This document shows positions 405 to 56,666 of a stretch of DNA of 56,666 nucleotides, piece after piece. The position numbers and the translations under genes are program-made. The DNA comes from Deltaproteobacteria bacterium (GTDB lineage: Bacteria > Bdellovibrionota_C > UBA2361 > SZUA-149 > JAITKM01), in contig JAITKM010000013.1 in assembly GCA_031278395.1 (NCBI GenBank), positions 1 to 56,666 of the forward strand, given 5' to 3'. A model generated the notes under the pieces. It made no database searches, was not told the origin of the DNA, and saw only the letters and a program-made list of their open reading frames with translations. Position 1 is the first letter of the stretch. The number at the start of each line of letters is the position of its first letter.

Positions 405-545
405 TCTGTTTTTTTTCTGGTACAGGGTTACTTTTATTTTTATACTTTTTTAGAAATTACAAAATAATTTAGAGAGTTACGTTTGTTTAATGTATGAAAA
501 AACTAATAAATAAAGTAACCCCATACCAGCGAAACCAGCGAAATA
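405..545. mobile_element. MITE-like palindromic repeat element, copy A
   Basis: The left terminus TTTTTTCTGGTACAGGGTTACTTTT (about 411-436) and the right terminus AAAGTAACCCCATACCAG (512-529) are inverted copies of each other. They flank an AT-rich core of about 75 bp. The right terminus is followed by the tandem ACCAGCGAA ACCAGCGAA. The core is about 80% identical to the core at 51663-51740. Confidence 0.8.
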
Positions 546-4037: not shown

Positions 4038-4595
4038 TTAAAAATATGTATCTACTGCAAATTTAAACTGGTCAATAAATAATTTTTTAAAATATTGAGT
4101 GTTATTTTGTTCATAAAATAATAAAATTGCCTTTTTGTATTCGTCAACATTTGTATTGCGATATGATAACGGACAATAGTCGTTTGCAAGCAAGACTGCA
4201 TTGGCGAGAATTCGAGATGTTCTTTTATTACCATCTTCAAAGGGGTGAATGTAAGAAATCATTAAAACGCAAATTAATGCTTTTTCTATTGGATTTTCAG
4301 TTTGATTAACAAGCGCTACTAATTGTTCCAGCGCTTCTTTGATTTGTTTGGCATTATCCAGCGGACGATATTTCATGCCAATAATTCCAACTTTGTGATT
4401 ACGAATTCCAGACGTGATATCTAGGTCATTTGTTAGTAATTTGTGCAAATCTTCGATGTGACGTATTGTTGCCCGCGATGTTTTATCAAAATGTTCGGAT
4501 ACAAAATTCTGAATTTCTTGTCGCGAAACAGATTTTTTTAACTGTAAAAAATCTAAAATCGCTTGTTGACGTTCATTTAATTTATTTTGTGCCAT
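4038..4595 (-). CDS. Fic/Doc-family protein with N-terminal winged-HTH
   Basis: 185 aa. Fic active-site motif HPFEDGNKRTSR, a variant of HxFx(D/E)GNGRxxR. The N-terminal ~60 aa look like a DNA-binding wHTH (ERQQAILDFLQLKKSVSRQEIQNFV). Confidence 0.75.
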   Translation of the reverse strand: MAQNKLNERQQAILDFLQLKKSVSRQEIQNFVSEHFDKTSRATIRHIEDLHKLLTNDLDITSGIRNHKVGIIGMKYRPLDNAKQIKEALEQLVALVNQTENPIEKALICVLMISYIHPFEDGNKRTSRILANAVLLANDYCPLSYRNTNVDEYKKAILLFYEQNNTQYFKKLFIDQFKFAVDTYF

Positions 4596-23580: not shown

Positions 23581-23760
23581 TTCTGGAGAAAAAAATAAAA
23601 AAATTCTGGAAATTCTGGTATGGGGTTACTTTATTTATTATCTTTTTTATAATTTGTTAAAACTACAATATATTGAATTTATTTGTTATTCTTTGAAAAA
23701 AAATTAAAAGTTTATATTTAAAAGTAACCCCATACCAGATGACCAGATGAATCCAGAGCT
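23581..23760. mobile_element. MITE-like palindromic repeat element, copy B
   Basis: Left arm TTCTGGA x3 then TGGTATGGGGTTACTTT (23617-23633). AT-rich core of about 85 bp. Right terminus AAAGTAACCCCATACCA (23721-23737), followed by ACCAGATG ACCAGATGA ATCCAGAG. Overlaps the spurious ORF 23522..23707. Confidence 0.8.
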
Positions 23761-28260: not shown

Positions 28261-28330
28261 AGACTAAGAGCTTAAGATGTTCTTGTGATGAAATTATTTA
28301 GAGAAAATATTCAGAAAAGTTTTGGAAGTT

Positions 28331-28352
28331 ATTTCTGGTATGGGGTTATTTC
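28331..28352. repeat. Solo element terminus (ATTTCTGGTATGGGGTTATTT)
   Basis: Read directly. It lies in the 141-bp gap between the SPFH gene and the upstream methyltransferase gene. Confidence 0.65.
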
Positions 28353-28401: not shown

Positions 28402-29853
28402 TCAGCTAGTTAAGGCAATTTCTTTGAAAAAGGCGAGAATATCTTCAATTTCATTGAGTGTAAGCTCAGGAGTTAATTTTTTAGAAATGTCCTGAAGGGA
28501 ATTTGTAGCATCCAGAAGTTTGGCGACTTTAATTTCATTTGGGGTAAGTTTAACATATTCATGACGATAATTAGTTATCCAGTCTTGAGTTTCAAGCTGA
28601 ATTTTTACGTAAGGCGAGATAGGTTTCTTATCTGTCGAGCAGCTTAGATACAGATCTAATAGTTCTTGTTTAAATAATTTAAAAAGCTCTTCTTTAACTG
28701 AAGTTTCGAGAGTCATTCCTACTAATGGAGCTAGGCTTTTTATTTCTCTAGGGTTAGGCCATTCTTGAATTACAAATTTTAAAATTTCTTGAGTTACTTT
28801 ATTGCGGATGCTAACTTTTACACCTTGTGCGTCGTAAAAATATGTTTCACCAAAATTGTCCGACTCAAAAACAAGCTTGGAGCTAAGATAGCAATCTTCA
28901 ATTATGTCTAAATTTGGTTTACGATTTATTAGGGCTTCATTTTTACAAAAAAGAGTTCCGCGAAATGCAGTAGCTTGACAGAAATCCGCCTCTTGCTCAC
29001 AAGTTTCAATAAAATCATCGCTGTAAACTTCGGGATTCTTATTAAGATCTAAGTAGTTAATTCTGTTTAATTTACTATCGCCTAGGTATTTTAAACCGAA
29101 ACTTTTAATATGCTCAGTTAGTTCTTGAAAATAGAACGCTTGATTATGTTCTGCTAGAAGTTCGTAAAATATATAACCGTCACTTTGTTGCAGAATGTGA
29201 TTAATTTCAAAATTTAACCTTGCGGCTTGAAAGGGTAGGTGTTTGTTTTTAAAATTGTAATTTAAAAGAAAGTCACGAATTTCTTGAAGGTTTGTCTGGG
29301 TTGGAACAGATAAATTAGAAAATTTATTTTGTAGTTCATGTCTTAAGAAATTCCGAACTTCGAAGCCTGGTAGCACATTATAGCTAATGTAACAAACGCC
29401 GTTTGAGGCAAGTTGAGACGAGCAGATTTGCAAAATACTATCTTGGGTTGCAGTTGGAACCCAAGAGAAAACTCCATGAACTAGAATATAGTCAAAATCC
29501 TTCTGAGTTTGGCTTTGCCAGAGATGTTGTTCAGTCTGATTAAGATCTTGAGCAATAAATTTAATATTTTTTAGGTTTAAGCTTTGGACATGCTGGTTAG
29601 CAATAGCAATTTGTTCTTTAGAAATATCAACCCCGATAAATGAGCTATTTGGATTACTTAAAGCAACTGGAATTAAGTTACTTCCTGTTCCGCAGCCAAG
29701 CTCTAAAATTACTGCATTTTGACTTAAGAGCTTCGCTTTTAAACCAAATAATCTGGCAATTAAACACAACCTGTCAGGGTGTTTATCGTAGCTAGGTTTT
29801 GATATGTAGTTTAATTTGTTATCTATTTCTGGTATGGGGTTACTTTTAGACAT
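28402..29853 (-). CDS. Class I SAM-dependent methyltransferase with C-terminal extension
   Basis: 483 aa. Motif I VILELGCGTGSNLIPVA and the post-I acidic residue (GVDIS). About 300 aa of C-terminal unknown domain. The first 30 nt of the CDS (ATGTCTAAAAGTAACCCCATACCAGAAATA) are a copy of the repeat-element terminus. Confidence 0.7.
   Translation of the reverse strand: MSKSNPIPEIDNKLNYISKPSYDKHPDRLCLIARLFGLKAKLLSQNAVILELGCGTGSNLIPVALSNPNSSFIGVDISKEQIAIANQHVQSLNLKNIKFIAQDLNQTEQHLWQSQTQKDFDYILVHGVFSWVPTATQDSILQICSSQLASNGVCYISYNVLPGFEVRNFLRHELQNKFSNLSVPTQTNLQEIRDFLLNYNFKNKHLPFQAARLNFEINHILQQSDGYIFYELLAEHNQAFYFQELTEHIKSFGLKYLGDSKLNRINYLDLNKNPEVYSDDFIETCEQEADFCQATAFRGTLFCKNEALINRKPNLDIIEDCYLSSKLVFESDNFGETYFYDAQGVKVSIRNKVTQEILKFVIQEWPNPREIKSLAPLVGMTLETSVKEELFKLFKQELLDLYLSCSTDKKPISPYVKIQLETQDWITNYRHEYVKLTPNEIKVAKLLDATNSLQDISKKLTPELTLNEIEDILAFFKEIALTS
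29826..29847. repeat. Element terminus (TATTTCTGGTATGGGGTTACTTTT) overlapping the 5' end of the methyltransferase CDS
   Basis: Read directly. Its reverse complement encodes residues 2-10 (SKSNPIPEI) of the 28402..29853 protein. Confidence 0.7.
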
Positions 29854-29910: not shown

Positions 29911-29978
29911 ACTAACTTACCTCCCTCCCTGCATTTTTTACTCCGCAAGCAAAAATGCAGGGAGGGAGGTAAGTTAGT
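29911..29978. promoter_or_regulatory. Perfect 28-bp inverted repeat with 12-nt loop (ACTAACTTACCTCCCTCCCTGCATTTTT-TACTCCGCAAGC-AAAAATGCAGGGAGGGAGGTAAGTTAGT)
   Basis: Read directly. It has a GC-rich core in an AT-rich divergent intergenic region, 58 bp from the minus-strand methyltransferase start and 140 bp from the plus-strand methyltransferase-GT8 start. Confidence 0.6.
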
Positions 29979-30117
29979 ATCTCAATGATTCCGCTCTCAG
30001 CGTCTATATATGTAAAAACTATGTAACAAAAGACTTTTTATAATTATTTTGCATCAAAGGTTGTAGTATTAAATCTAGTTTTTAGCATAATTCTATAAAA
30101 TTTTATCAAATTTAAAA

Positions 30118-31827
30118 ATGAAATTTATTCAATCAACTTCAACAGAAGAACAAATTCTTAATCGGCTCAATCCAGAATATATTCAGTATTCTGAAATGCA
30201 GCCTTTAGAACGAAGTTTTTTAAATACGCTTGTTTTAAGACATAAGCCTAAAAGAATATTAGAACTTGGAGTTTCAGCCGGTAGCTCCGCTGTGCTTATT
30301 TTGAATGCGCTTCAAGAAATTCCTGGTTCTAAACTCTATTCAATTGATTACAGCAGTAGTTTGTATAGAGACTTAACTAAACACGTAGGCTTTACAGTTG
30401 ATAACTATCCAGAACTAAAGCAAAACTGGCAACTTTTAACCAACGGACTAGCTTGCAAGTTTATAGATAATCTGGAGGAAAGTTTTGATTTTTGCTTTAT
30501 CGATACCGTGCATAAAGTTCCAGGCGAAATACTGGACTTCTTATTAGTTTTCCCATACCTCAAACAAAATGCAGTGATTGTTCTACACGATACTAACTTA
30601 CATACTATTAATAACTGCTATAATGATTTGAATAGTAACAATATGCTCATCAGTGCGATTAGTGGTGAGAAACTAGTCCCTAATTATGACCGTTATCTAG
30701 GTATGAGATTTGCCAATATTGCTGGAGTTATTCTTAATGAACAACAACAAGAAAATATTTGGGACATTTTTAATCTTTTACTCCAGCCCTGGAAATATAT
30801 GCCATCCGGCATAAACCTTAACAATATTAGAAAATATTTAGCCCAACACTATACTGATTATTTTTGCAACTTCTTTGATCGAGTAGTGAATTATCAAATC
30901 TCAAAGGCTAGTTGTAACCTAAACACAGAAATTTTATATATTCCCAAGCGCGCTCCTGCTACCCACAACACAGCTGCCGTAACTACTCAAGAACTAGACG
31001 AGCTACCTCCTTGTGTTATGGATATATTTTTTGCTGCTGATAATAATTATTCTCAATCCATGTGCGTTGCTTTAACCTCTATTCTAGTTAATTCTCGCCA
31101 AGAAGAAAATTTTAATTTTTATATCTTAGATGGCGGTATTCAAGTTGAAAATAAGCAAAAGATTGAAGAAATAAAAAATATTAAATCTTGTAATATCGAA
31201 TTTATTACAATTGATGGTTCGCTTTTTGATAATTGTCCTCTTGTCTCTGACTGTAGTCATATATCTAAAACAACCTATTACCGCTATTTAATTCCTGTCT
31301 TAAAACCAGAAATTCAGAAATGTCTTTACTTAGACTGCGACCTTGTAGTTGAAAACAGTTTAAGAGATTTGTGGGATACTTTTTTAGGAGATAATTACGC
31401 TGCCGTGATTGAAGACCGTGATCCGATAAATAATAGCAAACGTCTTAAAACAAAGGACTATTTTAATGCCGGTGTTATGTTGATTAACAACCAACAGTGG
31501 ATTAAGAACAATATTACTGAGGTCTTATTTAAAACAACAGTCGAGATGGAAGAACAAGGACTGATTAAATTTGTTGATCAAGATGTTTTAAATAAAGTCT
31601 TTGATAAACGTATCTTATTTATCCATCCCAAATATAATCTGCTAACATGCTCAATTTTTAAAACTAAATCGTTAAATTATCTGAACCGAGAGTTAGAGGA
31701 GGCACAAACTCAACCGATAGTTATCCATTATGCCAGCAATGTGAAACCATGGATTCAAAGTTGCTATCCACCATTTGGTCAGCGCTATTTTGAATATTTA
31801 AATTTAACGCCTTACCGGATTAATTAA
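30118..31827 (+). CDS. Bifunctional class I SAM-methyltransferase (TylF/CmcI-like) / family-8 glycosyltransferase fusion
   Basis: 569 aa. N-terminal RILELGVSAGSSAV...FDFCFIDTVHK (O-methyltransferase-like). C-terminal GT8 signatures DIFFAADNNY...YLDCDLVV...YFNAGVMLIN, as in LPS alpha-1,3-glycosyltransferases. Confidence 0.7.
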   Translation: MKFIQSTSTEEQILNRLNPEYIQYSEMQPLERSFLNTLVLRHKPKRILELGVSAGSSAVLILNALQEIPGSKLYSIDYSSSLYRDLTKHVGFTVDNYPELKQNWQLLTNGLACKFIDNLEESFDFCFIDTVHKVPGEILDFLLVFPYLKQNAVIVLHDTNLHTINNCYNDLNSNNMLISAISGEKLVPNYDRYLGMRFANIAGVILNEQQQENIWDIFNLLLQPWKYMPSGINLNNIRKYLAQHYTDYFCNFFDRVVNYQISKASCNLNTEILYIPKRAPATHNTAAVTTQELDELPPCVMDIFFAADNNYSQSMCVALTSILVNSRQEENFNFYILDGGIQVENKQKIEEIKNIKSCNIEFITIDGSLFDNCPLVSDCSHISKTTYYRYLIPVLKPEIQKCLYLDCDLVVENSLRDLWDTFLGDNYAAVIEDRDPINNSKRLKTKDYFNAGVMLINNQQWIKNNITEVLFKTTVEMEEQGLIKFVDQDVLNKVFDKRILFIHPKYNLLTCSIFKTKSLNYLNRELEEAQTQPIVIHYASNVKPWIQSCYPPFGQRYFEYLNLTPYRIN

Positions 31828-49519: not shown

Positions 49520-49745
49520 TTTTTTGTTTTTCTTTGGTGCAGGGTTCTTTTTTAGCTTTTTGTATATAAAAAGCTATTAAAAGTTGTATAGTTTTTAGAT
49601 AGTAAAATTAAATAGTTATCTTTTAAAAAGGTAACACTATAACCAAGAAAGCAAGCAAAAATTTGTTTCATACGTGGATTATCATAAAAAGATTATAAAG
49701 TAACCCTGCACCAGAAATAACCAGAAATACCAGAAATAACTGCAG
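49520..49745. mobile_element. MITE-like palindromic repeat element, copy D (longer core)
   Basis: TTTCTTTGGTGCAGGGTTCTTTT (49531-49552), a core of about 145 bp, then AAAGTAACCCTGCACCA (49698-49713) followed by ACCAGAAATA x3. Confidence 0.7.
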
Positions 49746-52830: not shown

Positions 52831-52839
52831 TCTCCTCCT

Positions 52840-53121
52840 CCTGACCTCCTCCTTCCTCCTGGTACAGGGTTACTTTCATTTTATATTTCTTGATGACACT
52901 TTTAAAAAATACCAAATAAATCTAATATATTAATCAAGATACCTAACTAAAAATATGGGTAATACCAGAAAGACCAGAAAAGTAACCTTATACCAGAAAG
53001 AAAATTAGTGGTCAGTGGTTAGCACAAGAGTGGTTAGTGGTTAGTTTACATGAGAACCAGAAAGAAAATATTAAACAGAAATCTAGTGTTAGACCAGAAC
53101 CCTATACCAGAAAGAAAAAAA
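52840..53121. mobile_element. MITE-like element copy F plus cluster of solo termini and microsatellites
   Basis: CCTCCT-rich run, then TGGTACAGGGTTACTTTC (52860-52877), core, then AAAAGTAACCTTATACCA (52978-52995) flanked by ACCAGAAAG repeats. GTGGTTA is repeated 3-4 times at 53007-53043. A further terminus AGAACCCTATACCAGAAAG lies at 53096-53114. Confidence 0.7.
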
Positions 53122-53590: not shown

Positions 53591-54904
53591 TTATCTGAAT
53601 GTAATTCCGTTTTTTTCTGAGCGTTTTAGCAACGTAATTGCAACAATCAGGGCAAGCATTTCCGCAATACCTGCGGTAAACCACACAACGGCAACGCCGA
53701 ATAAAACGGGAAATACGGAAATAATCACCGAGTTGAACAGCAGTCCCCGGCATACGTTGATGATAACCGATTCTTTCGTGCGTTTAGTTGAATATAAATA
53801 CGCAGAAATAATCGCAGTCAGGGAAATCGGAATAAAACTCCATGCGAATTTCGGCATAGCGTCCACGATGACATTGTAGATAGTCTCGTCCGCTCCAAAC
53901 AGCCCGCAAATTACCCTGCCTAAAAACAGCAACAGAACAAAGATCGCTACGCTTGCAGAAAAGTTGATCACAACGCCGGCATGAAAATAGTATTTCAAAT
54001 CATTTTCTTTTTTCGCCCCATAGGATTGTCCGAATAAGGGTTGCAAGCCCTCGGAAATGCCCCAAAATGCCGCAAATAAACAGGACGACACATAGTTGAT
54101 GATTGAATAAGCGTTGACCGCGCTGGCGCCAAGCGAGTTAAGCAACGTGTAGTTCAGGCAGAGCGTTGTAACCGGCATGGCGAATTGCGCGGTCATTTCG
54201 GGCAGCCCGCGAAGGAGAATTTTACGCCACATGGCGAAATCCGGCGTAAAGAGATGAAACCGCAAAGCCCCTTTTTTGCGTATAAAGTGAGACAGCATGA
54301 TAACAGCCCCGATTGTTTGGGATATTCCCGTTGCGATTGCCGTGCCCGCCACGCCTTGTTGAAGGGGGAAAATAAACAGCCAGTCCAGAAAAACATTGGC
54401 GGCGGTACTGACAATAACCGACGCGGCGACAAGTCGCGGCGAACCGTCATTGCGGCAAAATGCTTGCAATAAAAAGCCCGGTTCGGAAATAATCAGGAAC
54501 GCCGAATACCAGAATAAATAATCGCGGACGTAGGTAAAATAAATATCGTTTGCTCCGAGCAGGCGGGCAAGCGGTCCGGTAAAGAACATTCCGGCAATAC
54601 ATAACAGTACGGCAACCATGAAAATACCGGAAAGAGCGTGCATAAAAACCTGATTGGCGCCATTGGTATCGCCGCGACCAAGACGAATAGCGGCAATTGT
54701 TACACCGCCTATGGTTACGAGCAAATTAAGCGATACGACCAGCATGACGAAAGGAAGCGCAATATTGATCGCGCCAAGCGCATCCACCCCGACGCCCCTG
54801 CCGACAAAAACGCCGTCAATGACTGTAAATAAGAAAAAACAACAACTGCTGAGTACCGAAGGTACAAGATAATATGCTATATTTTGCGCCCGTGTCCGTT
54901 TCAT
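53591..54904 (-). CDS. MATE-family efflux transporter
   Basis: 437 aa. 12 predicted TM helices with MatE-family repeats (e.g. PEMTAQFAMPVTTLCLNYTLLNSLGASAV). GC-rich codon usage unlike the rest of the window. Confidence 0.8.
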   Translation of the reverse strand: MKRTRAQNIAYYLVPSVLSSCCFFLFTVIDGVFVGRGVGVDALGAINIALPFVMLVVSLNLLVTIGGVTIAAIRLGRGDTNGANQVFMHALSGIFMVAVLLCIAGMFFTGPLARLLGANDIYFTYVRDYLFWYSAFLIISEPGFLLQAFCRNDGSPRLVAASVIVSTAANVFLDWLFIFPLQQGVAGTAIATGISQTIGAVIMLSHFIRKKGALRFHLFTPDFAMWRKILLRGLPEMTAQFAMPVTTLCLNYTLLNSLGASAVNAYSIINYVSSCLFAAFWGISEGLQPLFGQSYGAKKENDLKYYFHAGVVINFSASVAIFVLLLFLGRVICGLFGADETIYNVIVDAMPKFAWSFIPISLTAIISAYLYSTKRTKESVIINVCRGLLFNSVIISVFPVLFGVAVVWFTAGIAEMLALIVAITLLKRSEKNGITFR

Positions 54905-55410
54905 AAATTAACGCCCCTACGAAAAAATTAATTTCTTTATGCAACGACCGAAGTCCTCATACTGCAAAAAAAAAGCCGAATAAGACGCCAATTGGATGTA
55001 ATTGGTTTTCTTATCCGGCGTGTTAGATACGTCTGCACGCCCTCCGAAAAACCAACTTATCCGACGTCTTATCCGGCTTTGTAACTACGCTGTACAAATC
55101 CTCCGACGAACAAAGTAAATAGTAATAAGATTACCCAAAACTATTTGAAACGTCAATCTGCCGTTTAACATACTTCCAAAGTCCAAGGTTGCAGTCGCGG
55201 TTCGGGTATTCCAATATGCACATCAGTAATTCAGCTTTTTCTTCCGTGGAAAATGTCTTTGACCAGCAAAGCGAGCATGGGGTCTATCAAAATCTTCATT
55301 TGCCCACCCCTTGGTCAAACAATGTCGGTTGCGCGGCCTGTTCCTGCCATTCCACCTTGAACGCCACGCAGTCCTTGACTTCTTGAACAAAGACCAGTTC
55401 TTCGCTTTAC

Positions 55411-55719
55411 ATGACGACGCGGGCGTTCTGCGTGAATACGAACCGCGATACTTTTTTGCGCCCCTGTAAGAACTCCAAGCCGGTCCGCGTTAAAATCCAT
55501 ATAAAAACCGAGTTCAAAAACAAATTGGAAGAGATTTATGCTCCGATACAAGAAATTATAAAAGAAGACGGATTGTTGAAAAGTGGCGCATTAAATATAA
55601 CAATCGATATGCACATGAAAGAGATACTGTTTATAGACCAGCCGGAAGAGAATCTTGATAACGAATCAATCTACAAATTGCTCGTTCCCGCCATCAAGGA
55701 AGCGCGGAATCAAATATGA
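55411..55719 (+). CDS. Hypothetical protein (uncertain ORF)
   Basis: 102 aa. No recognisable motif. Composition is mixed. The true start is unclear. Confidence 0.2.
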   Translation: MTTRAFCVNTNRDTFLRPCKNSKPVRVKIHIKTEFKNKLEEIYAPIQEIIKEDGLLKSGALNITIDMHMKEILFIDQPEENLDNESIYKLLVPAIKEARNQI

Positions 55720-55862
55720 TTTATAGAGAAGCTAAACCGCTTCCCACGAGCAAAGCATAATTTTCTGCACTTCGGCGGTATGTTTAAGGGCACGTTTGCA
55801 GCCAACGTTGTTAGCCGCAACTTCGCGTAATACTTATTATTTCGGCAATAGAAAATATTCTC

Positions 55863-56465
55863 TTAAAGGTTTATATTTTTTACCCGAATAAAATTTGTTA
55901 GTGTTTCACGATTGACACGAAGTTTTCTGGCAATAGCGGTCTTACTATCACCACGCGCGAGCATTCGGCGCACGCTATTTTCTTTGCCTGTCAGTTTCAG
56001 ATATGAACTCTTGCTGCCGAACGGCCGGCCAAGAATTTGACCAGCCGCACGACGGGCGGCCAGCGCTTCCTTGGTGCGCTGGGATATGAGATTTCTTTCC
56101 AATTCGGCTGTAAGACCAAAGGCAAAGGCGAGGATTTTTCCCTGTATACCTGCGTCAAGGCGATAATTGTCTCGGATAGTCCAAATGTTCGCACCAATAT
56201 TCATACAATGGTTCAGAATGCCCATAATCTGTAATAAATCACGTCCAAGGCGCGATAATTCGCTTGAAATAACTATATCGTCTTTTTTGATTTTCCTTAT
56301 CAATCTGCCAAGTTTGCGCTTTTTTAGCTCTTGCCGCGAACTGATGGTTTCCTCAACCCACTCATCAATAACGATGTGCTGCCCAGCAACGAATTGCTCT
56401 ATCTCAAACCTTTGGTTTTCTGTTGTTTGCGTAGCTGTGCTGACCCGTATGTAGCCATAAATCAT
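55863..56465 (-). CDS. Small serine recombinase (resolvase/invertase family)
   Basis: 200 aa. Catalytic N-terminus MIYGYIRVSTATQ (Ser nucleophile), SELSRLGRD motif, and C-terminal HTH (SKTAIARKLRVNRETLTNFI). Confidence 0.85.
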   Translation of the reverse strand: MIYGYIRVSTATQTTENQRFEIEQFVAGQHIVIDEWVEETISSRQELKKRKLGRLIRKIKKDDIVISSELSRLGRDLLQIMGILNHCMNIGANIWTIRDNYRLDAGIQGKILAFAFGLTAELERNLISQRTKEALAARRAAGQILGRPFGSKSSYLKLTGKENSVRRMLARGDSKTAIARKLRVNRETLTNFIRVKNINL

Positions 56466-56530
56466 TTTATACTCCTTTATTTTTGTTGAACATGTGTAGT
56501 CTAAATCATTTTATACTTCTTTGTTTTTCT
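56458..56530. promoter_or_regulatory. 29-bp direct repeat pair (TAAATCATTTTATACTCCTTTATTTTTGT / TAAATCATTTTATACTTCTTTGTTTTTCT) at the recombinase 5' end: candidate res-like/autoregulatory site
   Basis: Read directly. Copy 1 contains the recombinase RBS and start codon. Copy 2, 44 bp further upstream, carries ATG-ATT-TAG (a start followed by an immediate stop). Confidence 0.45.
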
Positions 56531-56666
56531 TAAACAACAACTTGTATAAAATAAACGACCGTATAAATCCGCCGGCGGCGCGATGATTTTTAATCCCACG
56601 CTGGGTCGAGAAATACCGGCGGGGTGGGAAACCTTGAAATTAGAAAAGCGGTTCAATTTTGATAGA

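What the first reader, a model, noticed from the sequence alone, without database searches (positions are those of the whole stretch)
29911..29978. Perfect 28-bp inverted repeat with GC-rich core in a divergent promoter region
ACTAACTTACCTCCCTCCCTGCATTTTT and its exact reverse complement are separated by TACTCCGCAAGC. That makes a 68-nt perfect hairpin or cruciform-capable site. Such a structure is vanishingly unlikely by chance in 56 kb. It sits between two divergently transcribed methyltransferase genes; the element terminus at 29830-29847 lies only 64 bp from the left arm. The arms contain CCTCC and GGAGG (anti-SD and SD-like) sequences. Possible roles are a shared operator for a dimeric regulator, a transcript-stabilising or processing hairpin, a recombination site, or a structured small RNA. 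There is no adjacent terminator-type U-run on either strand.
Basis: seen in the sequence. Interest (0 to 1): 0.6.

Follow-up and report, generated by a model that had tools for sequence, protein, structure and literature searches.

The report
Orphan perfect palindrome inserted between genes
A real, perfect 68-bp hairpin-forming palindrome lies between two divergent genes, but the only available relative with the same gene pair lacks it and no second copy was found, so it is most likely a young piece of inserted or self-copied DNA and not a conserved control element.

Summary
Arms 29911-29938 and 29951-29978 are 28/28 complementary around a 12-nt spacer. This is far beyond chance, and an independent assembly reproduces it exactly.

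The functional readings are not supported:
- The one syntenic relative (L031, genus-level) has the same divergent gene pair and a 54-bp intergenic block that is 93% identical. It has no trace of the palindrome. That block, not the palindrome, is the conserved regulatory DNA.
- The palindrome is 46% GC in a 20% GC spacer.
- I found no second copy in the contig, in GTDB representative genomes, or in the JGI metagenome, IMG/VR, plasmid and phage collections.
- It matches no Rfam family at threshold.
- It abuts a copy of an unrelated dispersed repeat that has remodelled the 5' end of the left gene.
- Few genes in this organism have a Shine-Dalgarno sequence, so the GGAGG/CCTCC motifs carry no weight.

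Best explanation (about 0.4): a TIR-only miniature transposon. The ends read C-TA-[24-bp TIR, 12 bp, 24-bp TIR]-TA-G, which is what a TA-duplicating IS630/Tc1-type insertion into CTAG would leave. If it is transcribed, it would form a 28-bp duplex.

Main rival (about 0.3): a one-step template-switch inverted duplication seeded at the central T5/A5.

Copy number in the rest of the genome could not be tested. Interest is low.

The parts
29911..29938 (.). Left arm of the perfect inverted repeat (ACTAACTTACCTCCCTCCCTGCATTTTT)
   Evidence: 28/28 complementary to 29951-29978. It has no other copy in the window.
29939..29950 (.). 12-nt non-palindromic spacer or loop (TACTCCGCAAGC). It is bracketed by T5 and A5, the innermost stem bases.
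29951..29978 (.). Right arm of the perfect inverted repeat (AAAAATGCAGGGAGGGAGGTAAGTTAGT)
29915..29974 (.). Inferred 60-bp mobile unit under the mini-transposon reading: a 24-bp TIR (ACTTACCTCCCTCCCTGCATTTTT), a 12-bp core and a 24-bp TIR.
   Evidence: This is an inference from the sequence. TA at 29913-14 and 29975-76 is the only palindromic, TSD-compatible dinucleotide at the ends. ISY100 has 24-bp TIRs, and about 30 bp of each end suffices for its transposition (PMC2170065).
29913..29914 (.). Left TA, the putative target-site duplication. Together with C29912 and G29977 it reconstructs a CTAG target, and with the outermost bases an ACTAGT target.
   Evidence: Sequence. TA duplication by the IS630 family, and the CTAG preference of IS630, are cited in PMC2170065. 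Inferred, not shown.
29975..29976 (.). Right TA, the putative target-site duplication.
   Evidence: Same basis as for the left TA.
29827..29846 (+). Context, not part of the palindrome. This is a copy of the dispersed repeat TTTCTGGTAYRGGGTTACTTT. It lies inside codons 3-8 of the PKMT-like gene, and its AT-rich tail runs toward the palindrome.
   Evidence: The arms are unrelated to this family: 40% of shuffles align as well.
30005..30058 (.). Context. This 54-bp block is 50/54 identical in relative L031, while the flanking genes are 69-74% identical at nucleotide level. It contains TATAAT and the direct repeats ATGTAAAAA/ATGTAACAA spaced 11 bp apart. It is the likely genuine shared regulatory or promoter DNA.

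Best explanation
The palindrome is a young, lineage-specific DNA insertion. It is most likely a TIR-only miniature transposon. In this reading it is a 60-bp unit made of two perfect 24-bp terminal inverted repeats around a 12-bp core. A TA-duplicating DDE transposase of the IS630/Tc1-mariner type, encoded elsewhere in the genome, would have inserted it into a TA within a CTAG (ACTAGT) target.

The TA duplication plus the palindromic target would extend the 24-bp TIR symmetry to the observed 28 bp. The element landed in an intergenic region already remodelled by another dispersed repeat, next to but outside the conserved regulatory block.

Any present-day effect is a by-product:
- It pushes the PKMT-like gene further from the conserved block. 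The hairpin is 68 bp of about 105 extra bases on that side.
- If the region is transcribed from either strand, it gives a 28-bp perfect RNA duplex (about -50 kcal/mol). That is the kind of substrate RNase III cleaves in Correia-element transcripts.

What is shown: the structure, its absence from the syntenic relative, its foreign composition, its singleton status in all searchable data, and its TA-flanked ends. What is inferred: the transposase family, the target site, and transcription or processing.
For: - The structure is real, and an independent assembly is identical.
- The whole hairpin is missing from L031. L031 keeps the same divergent gene pair and a 54-bp block at 93% identity.
- A contig from L031's sample (L041) is 97% aa / 80.5% nt identical in NusA, so the sample holds a genus-level relative.
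- Composition is foreign: 46% GC, with a 77% GC core, against 20% GC for the rest of the spacer.
- The ends read C-TA-[24 bp...24 bp]-TA-G. TA is the only TSD-compatible reading, and there is no direct repeat outside the 28-bp arms.
- The IS630 family duplicates TA, and IS630 prefers TA within CTAG. ISY100 has 24-bp TIRs, and about 30 bp of each end is enough to transpose (PMC2170065).
- Bacterial MITEs typically carry terminal TA and TIRs and fold into long hairpins (PMC2229807; PMC3184786).
- The site is an insertion hotspot: a dispersed-repeat copy sits 64 bp away, inside the first codons of the left gene.
- It matches no RNA family at threshold. It has no terminator tail. Pairing does not extend beyond the stem.
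Against: - Only one copy is known. There is none elsewhere in the 56.7-kb contig. The 18-nt arm core has no paired-arm match in GTDB representative genomes, JGI metagenomes or IMG/VR. A blastn search of the whole hairpin against the plasmid and phage collections found nothing either.
- No parent IS is known, and no transposase is encoded in the window.
- IS and MITE TIRs are usually imperfect; these are 28/28.
- A 12-bp core would make this smaller than any bacterial MITE in the reviews I read.
- Only one syntenic comparator exists and there is no outgroup, so insertion versus deletion is not formally polarised.
- The empty site in L031 is too diverged to show ACTAGT.
Confidence: 0.4

Rival explanations
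1. The palindrome is a de novo inverted duplication made by replication template switching or snap-back. One arm plus the spacer pre-existed. The polymerase switched strands at the T5...A5 microhomology that brackets the 12-nt spacer. It copied about 23 more nucleotides as reverse complement and then returned, creating a perfect 28-bp stem in one event. No transposase and no function are required.
For: - The arms are perfect at 28/28, as expected from a single copying event.
- It is a strict singleton in all searchable data.
- T5-N12-A5 lies at the centre. Short inverted repeats of 5-9 bp separated by 3-12 bp can seed snap-back events (PMC7999016).
- Template switching is documented in bacteria. 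It creates or perfects hairpin stems, including by long insertions (PMC8794818; PMC5941160).
- It needs no missing parent element.
Against: - A GC-rich source arm of about 40 nt is still needed. That arm is absent from L031 and foreign in composition to a 20% GC spacer, so a prior insertion is needed anyway.
- It does not explain why the symmetry ends exactly at TA-flanked, CTAG-like borders.
- No single-arm intermediate is available to observe.
Confidence: 0.3
2. The palindrome is a recently acquired but selected regulatory element. It could act as a cruciform or protein-binding site. It could also act as a 5'-UTR hairpin (a processing, stabilising or roadblock element) that tunes expression of the PKMT-like gene or the methyltransferase-GT8 gene in this lineage only.
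For: - It lies in a divergent promoter region, 57 nt from the left ATG and 26 nt from the conserved block.
- The structure is extremely stable on both strands.
- MITE-type hairpins are known to alter expression of neighbouring genes, for example through RNase III cleavage of Correia-element transcripts (PMC10969869; PMC2229807).
- Perfect arms could reflect maintenance and not youth (PMC5941160).
Against: - It is absent from the only relative with the same gene pair, while the adjacent block is 93% conserved.
- To my knowledge, 28-bp perfect arms far exceed any operator half-site, and functional RNAs rarely have flawless long duplexes.
- It matches no Rfam family at threshold.
- Promoter-like sites in the region are at or below chance, 1 found against 2.5 expected, so transcription through the hairpin is unproven.
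- SD-like motifs are irrelevant here, since only 5 of 40 genes have one.
- Flank pairing is at chance level.
Confidence: 0.15
3. The palindrome is a site for a site-specific or single-strand DNA enzyme. Candidates are an HUH nickase origin (a Rep or relaxase-type hairpin with the nick site in the loop), an integron attC-like site, a hairpin-telomere resolution site, or a recombinase target.
For: - It forms a hairpin with an asymmetric loop.
- From memory, the loop TACTCCGCA resembles the pMV158-family nick sequence TACTACGAC at 6 of 9 positions. This was not tested.
- A serine resolvase gene lies at the far end of the contig, 55863-56465.
Against: - No Rep, relaxase, integrase, TnpA or protelomerase gene lies within the 56.7 kb. 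The resolvase is 26 kb away.
- attC sites need RYYYAAC/GTTRRRY cores and extrahelical bases. Here the cores do not fit (CACTAAC / GTTAGTA) and the stem is flawless.
- Telomere-resolution sites have no 12-nt asymmetric centre.
- The context is chromosomal housekeeping: ValRS, DnaB and NusA-IF2.
Confidence: 0.05

Closest known systems
IS630/Tc1-mariner-derived MITEs (for example pneumococcal RUP; ISY100 mini-transposons; eukaryotic Stowaway-like MITEs)
   Same: It has terminal inverted repeats of about 24 bp, TA at both ends, no coding capacity and an intergenic location, and it folds into a long hairpin. A palindromic CTAG-type target would explain the 28-bp symmetry (PMC2170065, PMC2229807).
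   Different: Only one copy is known. No parent IS or transposase was found. The TIRs are perfect, and only 12 bp separate them (60 bp against about 107 bp for RUP). The TIR sequence has no match in any collection searched.
Correia/NEMIS elements of Neisseria
   Same: Both are TA-flanked, TIR-bounded small insertions next to promoters. Transcripts of Correia elements form long hairpins that RNase III cleaves, with effects on neighbouring genes (PMC10969869, PMC2229807).
   Different: Correia elements are 104-157 bp, occur in hundreds of copies, and carry IHF sites and promoter motifs. The element here is a singleton of 60-68 bp with no sequence similarity and no evidence of transcription.
REP / REPIN (RAYT-mobilised) palindromes
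   Same: Both are small, relatively GC-rich, intergenic hairpin-forming sequences. REPINs are inverted REP pairs forming hairpins of about 70-100 nt.
   Different: REPs are 21-65 bp, are individually palindromic, are often preceded by GTAG, and are present in tens to hundreds of copies with a RAYT gene (PMC3184786). Here each arm is not itself palindromic, no GTAG or RAYT is present, and the copy number is one.
Template-switch (quasipalindrome) hairpin mutations
   Same: Both give a perfect stem created in one step, a short central microhomology and a singleton locus (PMC8794818, PMC5941160).
   Different: The events described there are mostly shorter and copy local sequence. Here the copied sequence is compositionally foreign, and no ancestral single arm is seen.

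Membership tests
MITE (miniature inverted-repeat transposable element) | Terminal inverted repeats bounding a short non-coding unit | tested here: met
   The inverted repeat is a perfect 28 bp (24 bp if the TA and target bases are excluded) around 12 bp.
MITE (miniature inverted-repeat transposable element) | Target-site duplication flanking the TIRs | tested here: inconclusive
   There is no direct repeat outside the 28-bp arms. TA at 29913-14 and 29975-76 is compatible with a 2-bp TSD, but it cannot be told apart from the palindrome itself.
MITE (miniature inverted-repeat transposable element) | Multiple dispersed copies in the genome | tested here: not met
   There is one copy in 56.7 kb. 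None was found in GTDB representatives, JGI metagenomes, IMG/VR, plasmids or phages. The rest of the source genome is not searchable, so this result covers the available data only.
MITE (miniature inverted-repeat transposable element) | Filled versus empty site between relatives | tested here: met
   It is absent from L031, which has the same gene pair. There is one comparator and no outgroup.
IS630/Tc1-mariner-derived element | TA target duplication (CTAG preference for IS630) | tested here: inconclusive
   The ends read C-TA-...-TA-G, consistent with PMC2170065. The pre-insertion site is not recoverable from L031.
IS630/Tc1-mariner-derived element | Cognate DDE transposase or parent IS with matching TIRs | tested here: not met
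   No transposase is encoded in the window. The 18-nt TIR core has no paired match in any collection.
REP/REPIN | Each unit is an imperfect palindrome, often with a 5' GTAG; high copy number; RAYT gene | tested here: not met
   The arm is not self-complementary, and no GTAG or RAYT is present. It is a single copy.
Intrinsic terminator | GC-rich stem followed by a U-run, downstream of a gene | tested here: not met
   The scan found 0 terminator-like sites. Both neighbouring genes diverge from the site.
Operator for a dimeric regulator of the gene pair | Conservation with the regulated genes in relatives | tested here: not met
   It is absent in L031, while the adjacent 54-bp block is 93% identical.
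Curated structured RNA (Rfam) | Covariance-model match at the gathering score | tested here: not met
   There were no hits at gathering score. The permissive scan gave only generic miRNA-hairpin models on both strands, far below threshold.
Integron attC | R''/R' cores (RYYYAAC/GTTRRRY), extrahelical bases, nearby integrase | tested here: not met
   The outer 7-mers CACTAAC and GTTAGTA do not fit the cores. The stem has no bulges. No integrase is present.
Template-switch inverted duplication | One arm ancestral (present in relatives), the other a reverse-complement copy | not testable with these tools
   The only syntenic relative is too diverged and has neither arm. Closer relatives are not in the collections.

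The most novel reading that the evidence does not exclude
The hairpin is the first sighted copy of a previously undescribed ultra-small (about 60 bp, essentially TIR-only) TA-targeting mobile element in an uncultured Bdellovibrionota/Oligoflexia-like lineage. It would be active enough to keep perfect ends, and here it would rewire the divergent promoter of two cell-envelope modification genes through a 28-bp RNA or DNA hairpin.
Probability: 0.15. Interest if true: 0.45.

Novelty: new member of a known kind. Interest (0 to 1): 0.22.

Why it matters
If it is a mini-transposon, it would sit at the lower size limit for a mobile element: two transposase-binding ends and almost nothing else. It would also be an example of promoter-region remodelling in a poorly sampled predatory-bacteria-like lineage. 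If it is a template-switch product, it is a clean natural example of one-step birth of a long perfect hairpin next to a promoter. Either way, the practical message is that the conserved 54-bp block at 30005-30058 is the place to look for regulation of this gene pair, not the eye-catching palindrome.

Tried and rejected
- **Genome-wide repeat.** I scanned the 18-nt arm core. It gave 3 solitary hits in GTDB representative genomes, 25 solitary hits in JGI metagenomes and 0 in IMG/VR. All lack a partner arm. One soil group matches 23 nt, which I put at about 5% by chance. It is in an unrelated organism of 54-56% GC and matches no RNA family.
- **Plasmid and phage blastn.** Only chance matches of 20-27 nt came up.
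- **Looser gapped core scan in IMG/VR.** It found 17 hairpins in phages of mostly 58-70% GC, with 10-17-bp stems and no further similarity.
- **Extended helix into the flanks.** The - strand fold suggested this, but it is at chance level, z = -0.7 on both strands.
- **Relation to the adjacent dispersed repeat, such as a degenerate partner TIR.** The alignment score is matched by 40% of shuffles.
- **Other similarity inside the window or in relatives.** The best match is 12 nt, E = 0.08.
- **Outgroups to polarise the indel.** Orthologues at 40-50% identity sit in different neighbourhoods, next to arginase or in glycosyltransferase operons.
- **Extending the genome beyond the contig.** The Logan contig ends at the same place.
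- **Leader peptide or SD sequestration.** A 13-codon ORF follows the right arm, but it is not conserved in L031, and SD use in this genome is rare.
- **Terminator, attC, HUH origin and telomere-resolution site.** I rejected all four on anatomy and on the absence of cognate genes.
- **Assembly artefact.** Rejected, because the independent assembly is identical.

Full report
**1. Observation**

It has two 28-nt arms, ACTAACTTACCTCCCTCCCTGCATTTTT and its exact reverse complement, around the 12-nt spacer TACTCCGCAAGC.

With up to 3 mismatches the 28-mer occurs only at these two positions. None of 100 dinucleotide-preserving shuffles produced a match. It is the longest hairpin-type repeat in the window. 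The next best are ordinary 19-21-bp AT-rich hairpins.

| Fold | Energy (kcal/mol) | z-score |
|---|---|---|
| RNA, + strand | -53.3 | -10.7 |
| RNA, - strand | -64.3 | -12.7 |
| DNA | -32.4 | -14.1 |

The - strand fold appeared to extend the helix into the flanks through G-U pairs. That extension is at chance level, z about -0.7 on both strands.

An independent assembly of run SRR14710901 (Logan) is identical over 7.4 kb including the palindrome, so it is not an assembler artefact.

**2. Context**

The window is a complete 56,666-bp contig of a MAG labelled 'Deltaproteobacteria bacterium'. Its NusA is 62-64% identical to proteins named Bdellovibrionota, Bdellovibrionales or Oligoflexia. GC content is about 35%.

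The contig carries housekeeping genes, including ValRS, RecN, DnaB, TrmD and NusA-IF2-RbfA. It has no transposase. The only recombinase is a serine resolvase at the extreme right end.

- The left gene (28402-29853, -) has Methyltransf_31, MethyTransf_Reg and PKMT winged-helix domains. That is a PKMT-like protein methyltransferase architecture.
- The right gene (30118-31827, +) is a Methyltransf_24 + glycosyltransferase-8 fusion. A GT2 gene and a Mur-ligase-like gene follow it.

These look like envelope or protein-modification genes, not DNA methyltransferases.

No terminator-like site and no significant promoter-like site is found in the spacer. Only 5 of 40 genes have GGAG/GAGG upstream, and neither flanking gene does. 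The SD/anti-SD resemblance of the arms is therefore not informative.

**3. Comparison with relatives**

Homologue searches with both flanking proteins found only one relative that keeps the gene pair. This is JGI contig Ga0466696_470947 (L031), with 71% and 60% amino-acid identity. Another contig from the same sample (L041) has NusA at 97% aa and 80.5% nt identity. L031 may therefore come from a genus-level relative.

In L031 the divergent spacer is 138 bp, against 264 bp here. A 54-bp block (window 30005-30058) is 50/54 identical, whereas the flanking coding DNA is 69-74% identical. The block contains a perfect TATAAT and two ATGTAA(A/C)AA repeats 11 bp apart.

The palindrome and about 40 nt of adjacent AT-rich DNA have no counterpart in L031. 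More distant orthologues (40-50% identity) lie in other neighbourhoods and cannot polarise the indel.

The conserved block is the candidate regulatory DNA.

**4. Is it one of a family?**

No second copy was found in anything I could search:
- Elsewhere in the contig: nothing.
- The 18-nt arm core in GTDB representative genomes (596 Gb): 3 solitary hits.
- The same core in JGI metagenomes: 25 solitary hits.
- The same core in IMG/VR: 0 hits.

None of the solitary hits has a partner arm, and identity collapses outside the core. One soil group matches 23 nt, which is borderline, but it is from an unrelated high-GC organism.

Plasmid and phage blastn gave chance matches only. A looser gapped scan of IMG/VR found unrelated GC-rich phage hairpins.

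The source genome itself is not in the scannable collections. Copy number in the remaining megabases is unknown, and this is the main gap.

**5. The neighbouring repeat**

- It has 11 strict and 17 loose copies in the window.
- Three inverted pairs of 113-138 bp exist.
- Copies lie in divergent, convergent and tandem spacers.
- ACCAGAAAT-type 9-10-bp sub-repeats lie beside several copies.

The copy at 29829-29846 lies inside the first codons of the PKMT-like gene. The window protein begins MSKSNPIPEIDNKLNYISKP, whereas L031 begins MSEFNYVSKP. Another copy at 28335 brackets the gene's 3' end.

The family is absent from about 25 kb of relatives and from IMG/VR. The palindrome arms are unrelated to it.

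The palindrome therefore sits in a spacer that has already accepted other repeat DNA in this lineage.

**6. What it most likely is**

The palindrome is 46% GC, with a 13-nt core at 77% GC, inside a spacer that is otherwise 20% GC. It is flawless and lineage-specific. These are signatures of a recent DNA-level event, not of a long-maintained functional site.

Two mechanisms fit.

(a) *A TIR-only miniature transposon.*
- No direct repeat flanks the 28-bp arms. The only TSD-compatible reading is TA at 29913-14 and 29975-76.
- That reading gives C-TA-[24-bp TIR, 12 bp, 24-bp TIR]-TA-G. It is the product expected from a TA-duplicating insertion into CTAG (here ACTAGT).
- IS630-family elements duplicate TA, and IS630 prefers TA within CTAG. 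ISY100 has 24-bp TIRs and transposes with only about 30 bp of each end (PMC2170065).
- Bacterial MITEs typically have TA termini and TIRs and fold into long hairpins (PMC2229807, PMC3184786).
- Against this reading: single copy, no parent IS, perfect TIRs and a very small size.

(b) *A one-step template-switch or snap-back inverted duplication*, seeded by the T5-N12-A5 at the centre.
- This explains the perfect arms and the singleton status (PMC8794818, PMC5941160, PMC7999016).
- It still needs a foreign GC-rich source arm, and it does not explain the TA/CTAG-like borders.

My confidences are about 0.4 for (a), 0.3 for (b), 0.15 for a recently selected regulatory hairpin and 0.05 for an enzyme recognition site.

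My own estimate for the broader statement, that this is a lineage-specific insertion and not a conserved operator or RNA, is about 0.8.

**7. Likely consequences (inferred)**

The extra DNA, of which the hairpin is 68 bp, moves the PKMT-like gene about 105 bp further from the conserved block.

If transcription crosses the palindrome in either direction, the RNA carries a 28-bp perfect duplex. In Neisseria, Correia-element hairpins of this kind are cleaved by RNase III and change mRNA levels (PMC10969869, PMC2229807).

Perfect non-coding inverted repeats in E. coli K-12 all have arms shorter than 20 bp (PMC5941160). A 28-bp stem is therefore unusual, and template-switch correction could keep it homogeneous. 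None of this is shown here.

**8. Novelty and score**

The sequence has no known relative. Its kind is familiar, whether a small TIR or hairpin insertion or a template-switch palindrome in a promoter region. I file it as a new member of a known kind with unproven membership, and I score interest at about 0.2.

The most novel reading still open is a founding copy of an ultra-small TA-targeting mobile element in an uncultured Bdellovibrionota-like lineage. I give it a probability of about 0.15.

Noticed in passing
window 417-529, 17552, 23615-23738, 23822, 28335, 29829, 40576, 49535-49713, 51630, 51752, 52859-52996, 53096, 53536: A dispersed intergenic repeat family with core TTTCTGGTAYRGGGTTACTTT and an AT-rich tail. 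It has 11 strict and 17 loose copies in 56.7 kb, against about 0.06 expected by chance. Three inverted pairs of 113-138 bp look MITE-like. ACCAGAAAT-type 9-10-bp sub-repeats flank several copies. The family is absent from relatives' loci and from IMG/VR. Its nature (MITE, REP-like or protein-binding array) is unresolved.
   Followed up: partly
window 29815-29853 (5' end of gene 28402-29853, - strand) and 28321-28352: One family copy lies in frame inside codons 3-8 of the PKMT-like gene. The window protein starts MSKSNPIPEIDNK..., whereas the relative starts MSEF.... A second, direct copy sits just past the gene's stop, so the gene is bracketed by direct repeats 1494 bp apart. Synteny with the relative breaks at that 3' end.
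   Followed up: partly
window 30005-30058: A 54-bp intergenic block is 93% identical to the genus-level relative, although the flanking genes are only 69-74% identical at nucleotide level. It contains a perfect TATAAT and the direct repeats ATGTAAAAA/ATGTAACAA spaced 11 bp apart, a spacing that would suit a response-regulator-type binding site. It is the likely true control region of the divergent pair.
   Followed up: partly
window 53591-56666: At the right end of the contig GC rises to about 46%. This region holds a MatE gene, a 102-aa orphan ORF and a serine resolvase (55863-56465, -), plus a 44-bp tandem duplication at 56450-56536. The independent Logan contig breaks at the same place. This may be the edge of a mobile or horizontally acquired segment.
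   Followed up: no
window 52832-52860: A polypyrimidine CTC/CCT-rich tract (ctctcctcctcctgacctcctccttcctc) lies directly upstream of the family copy at 52859. It is superficially reminiscent of the palindrome's CCTCCCTCCC core, but no alignment supports a relationship.
   Followed up: no
window 4038-4595: A small Fic/DOC-family protein gene sits in an otherwise housekeeping neighbourhood, between ValRS and RecN.
   Followed up: no
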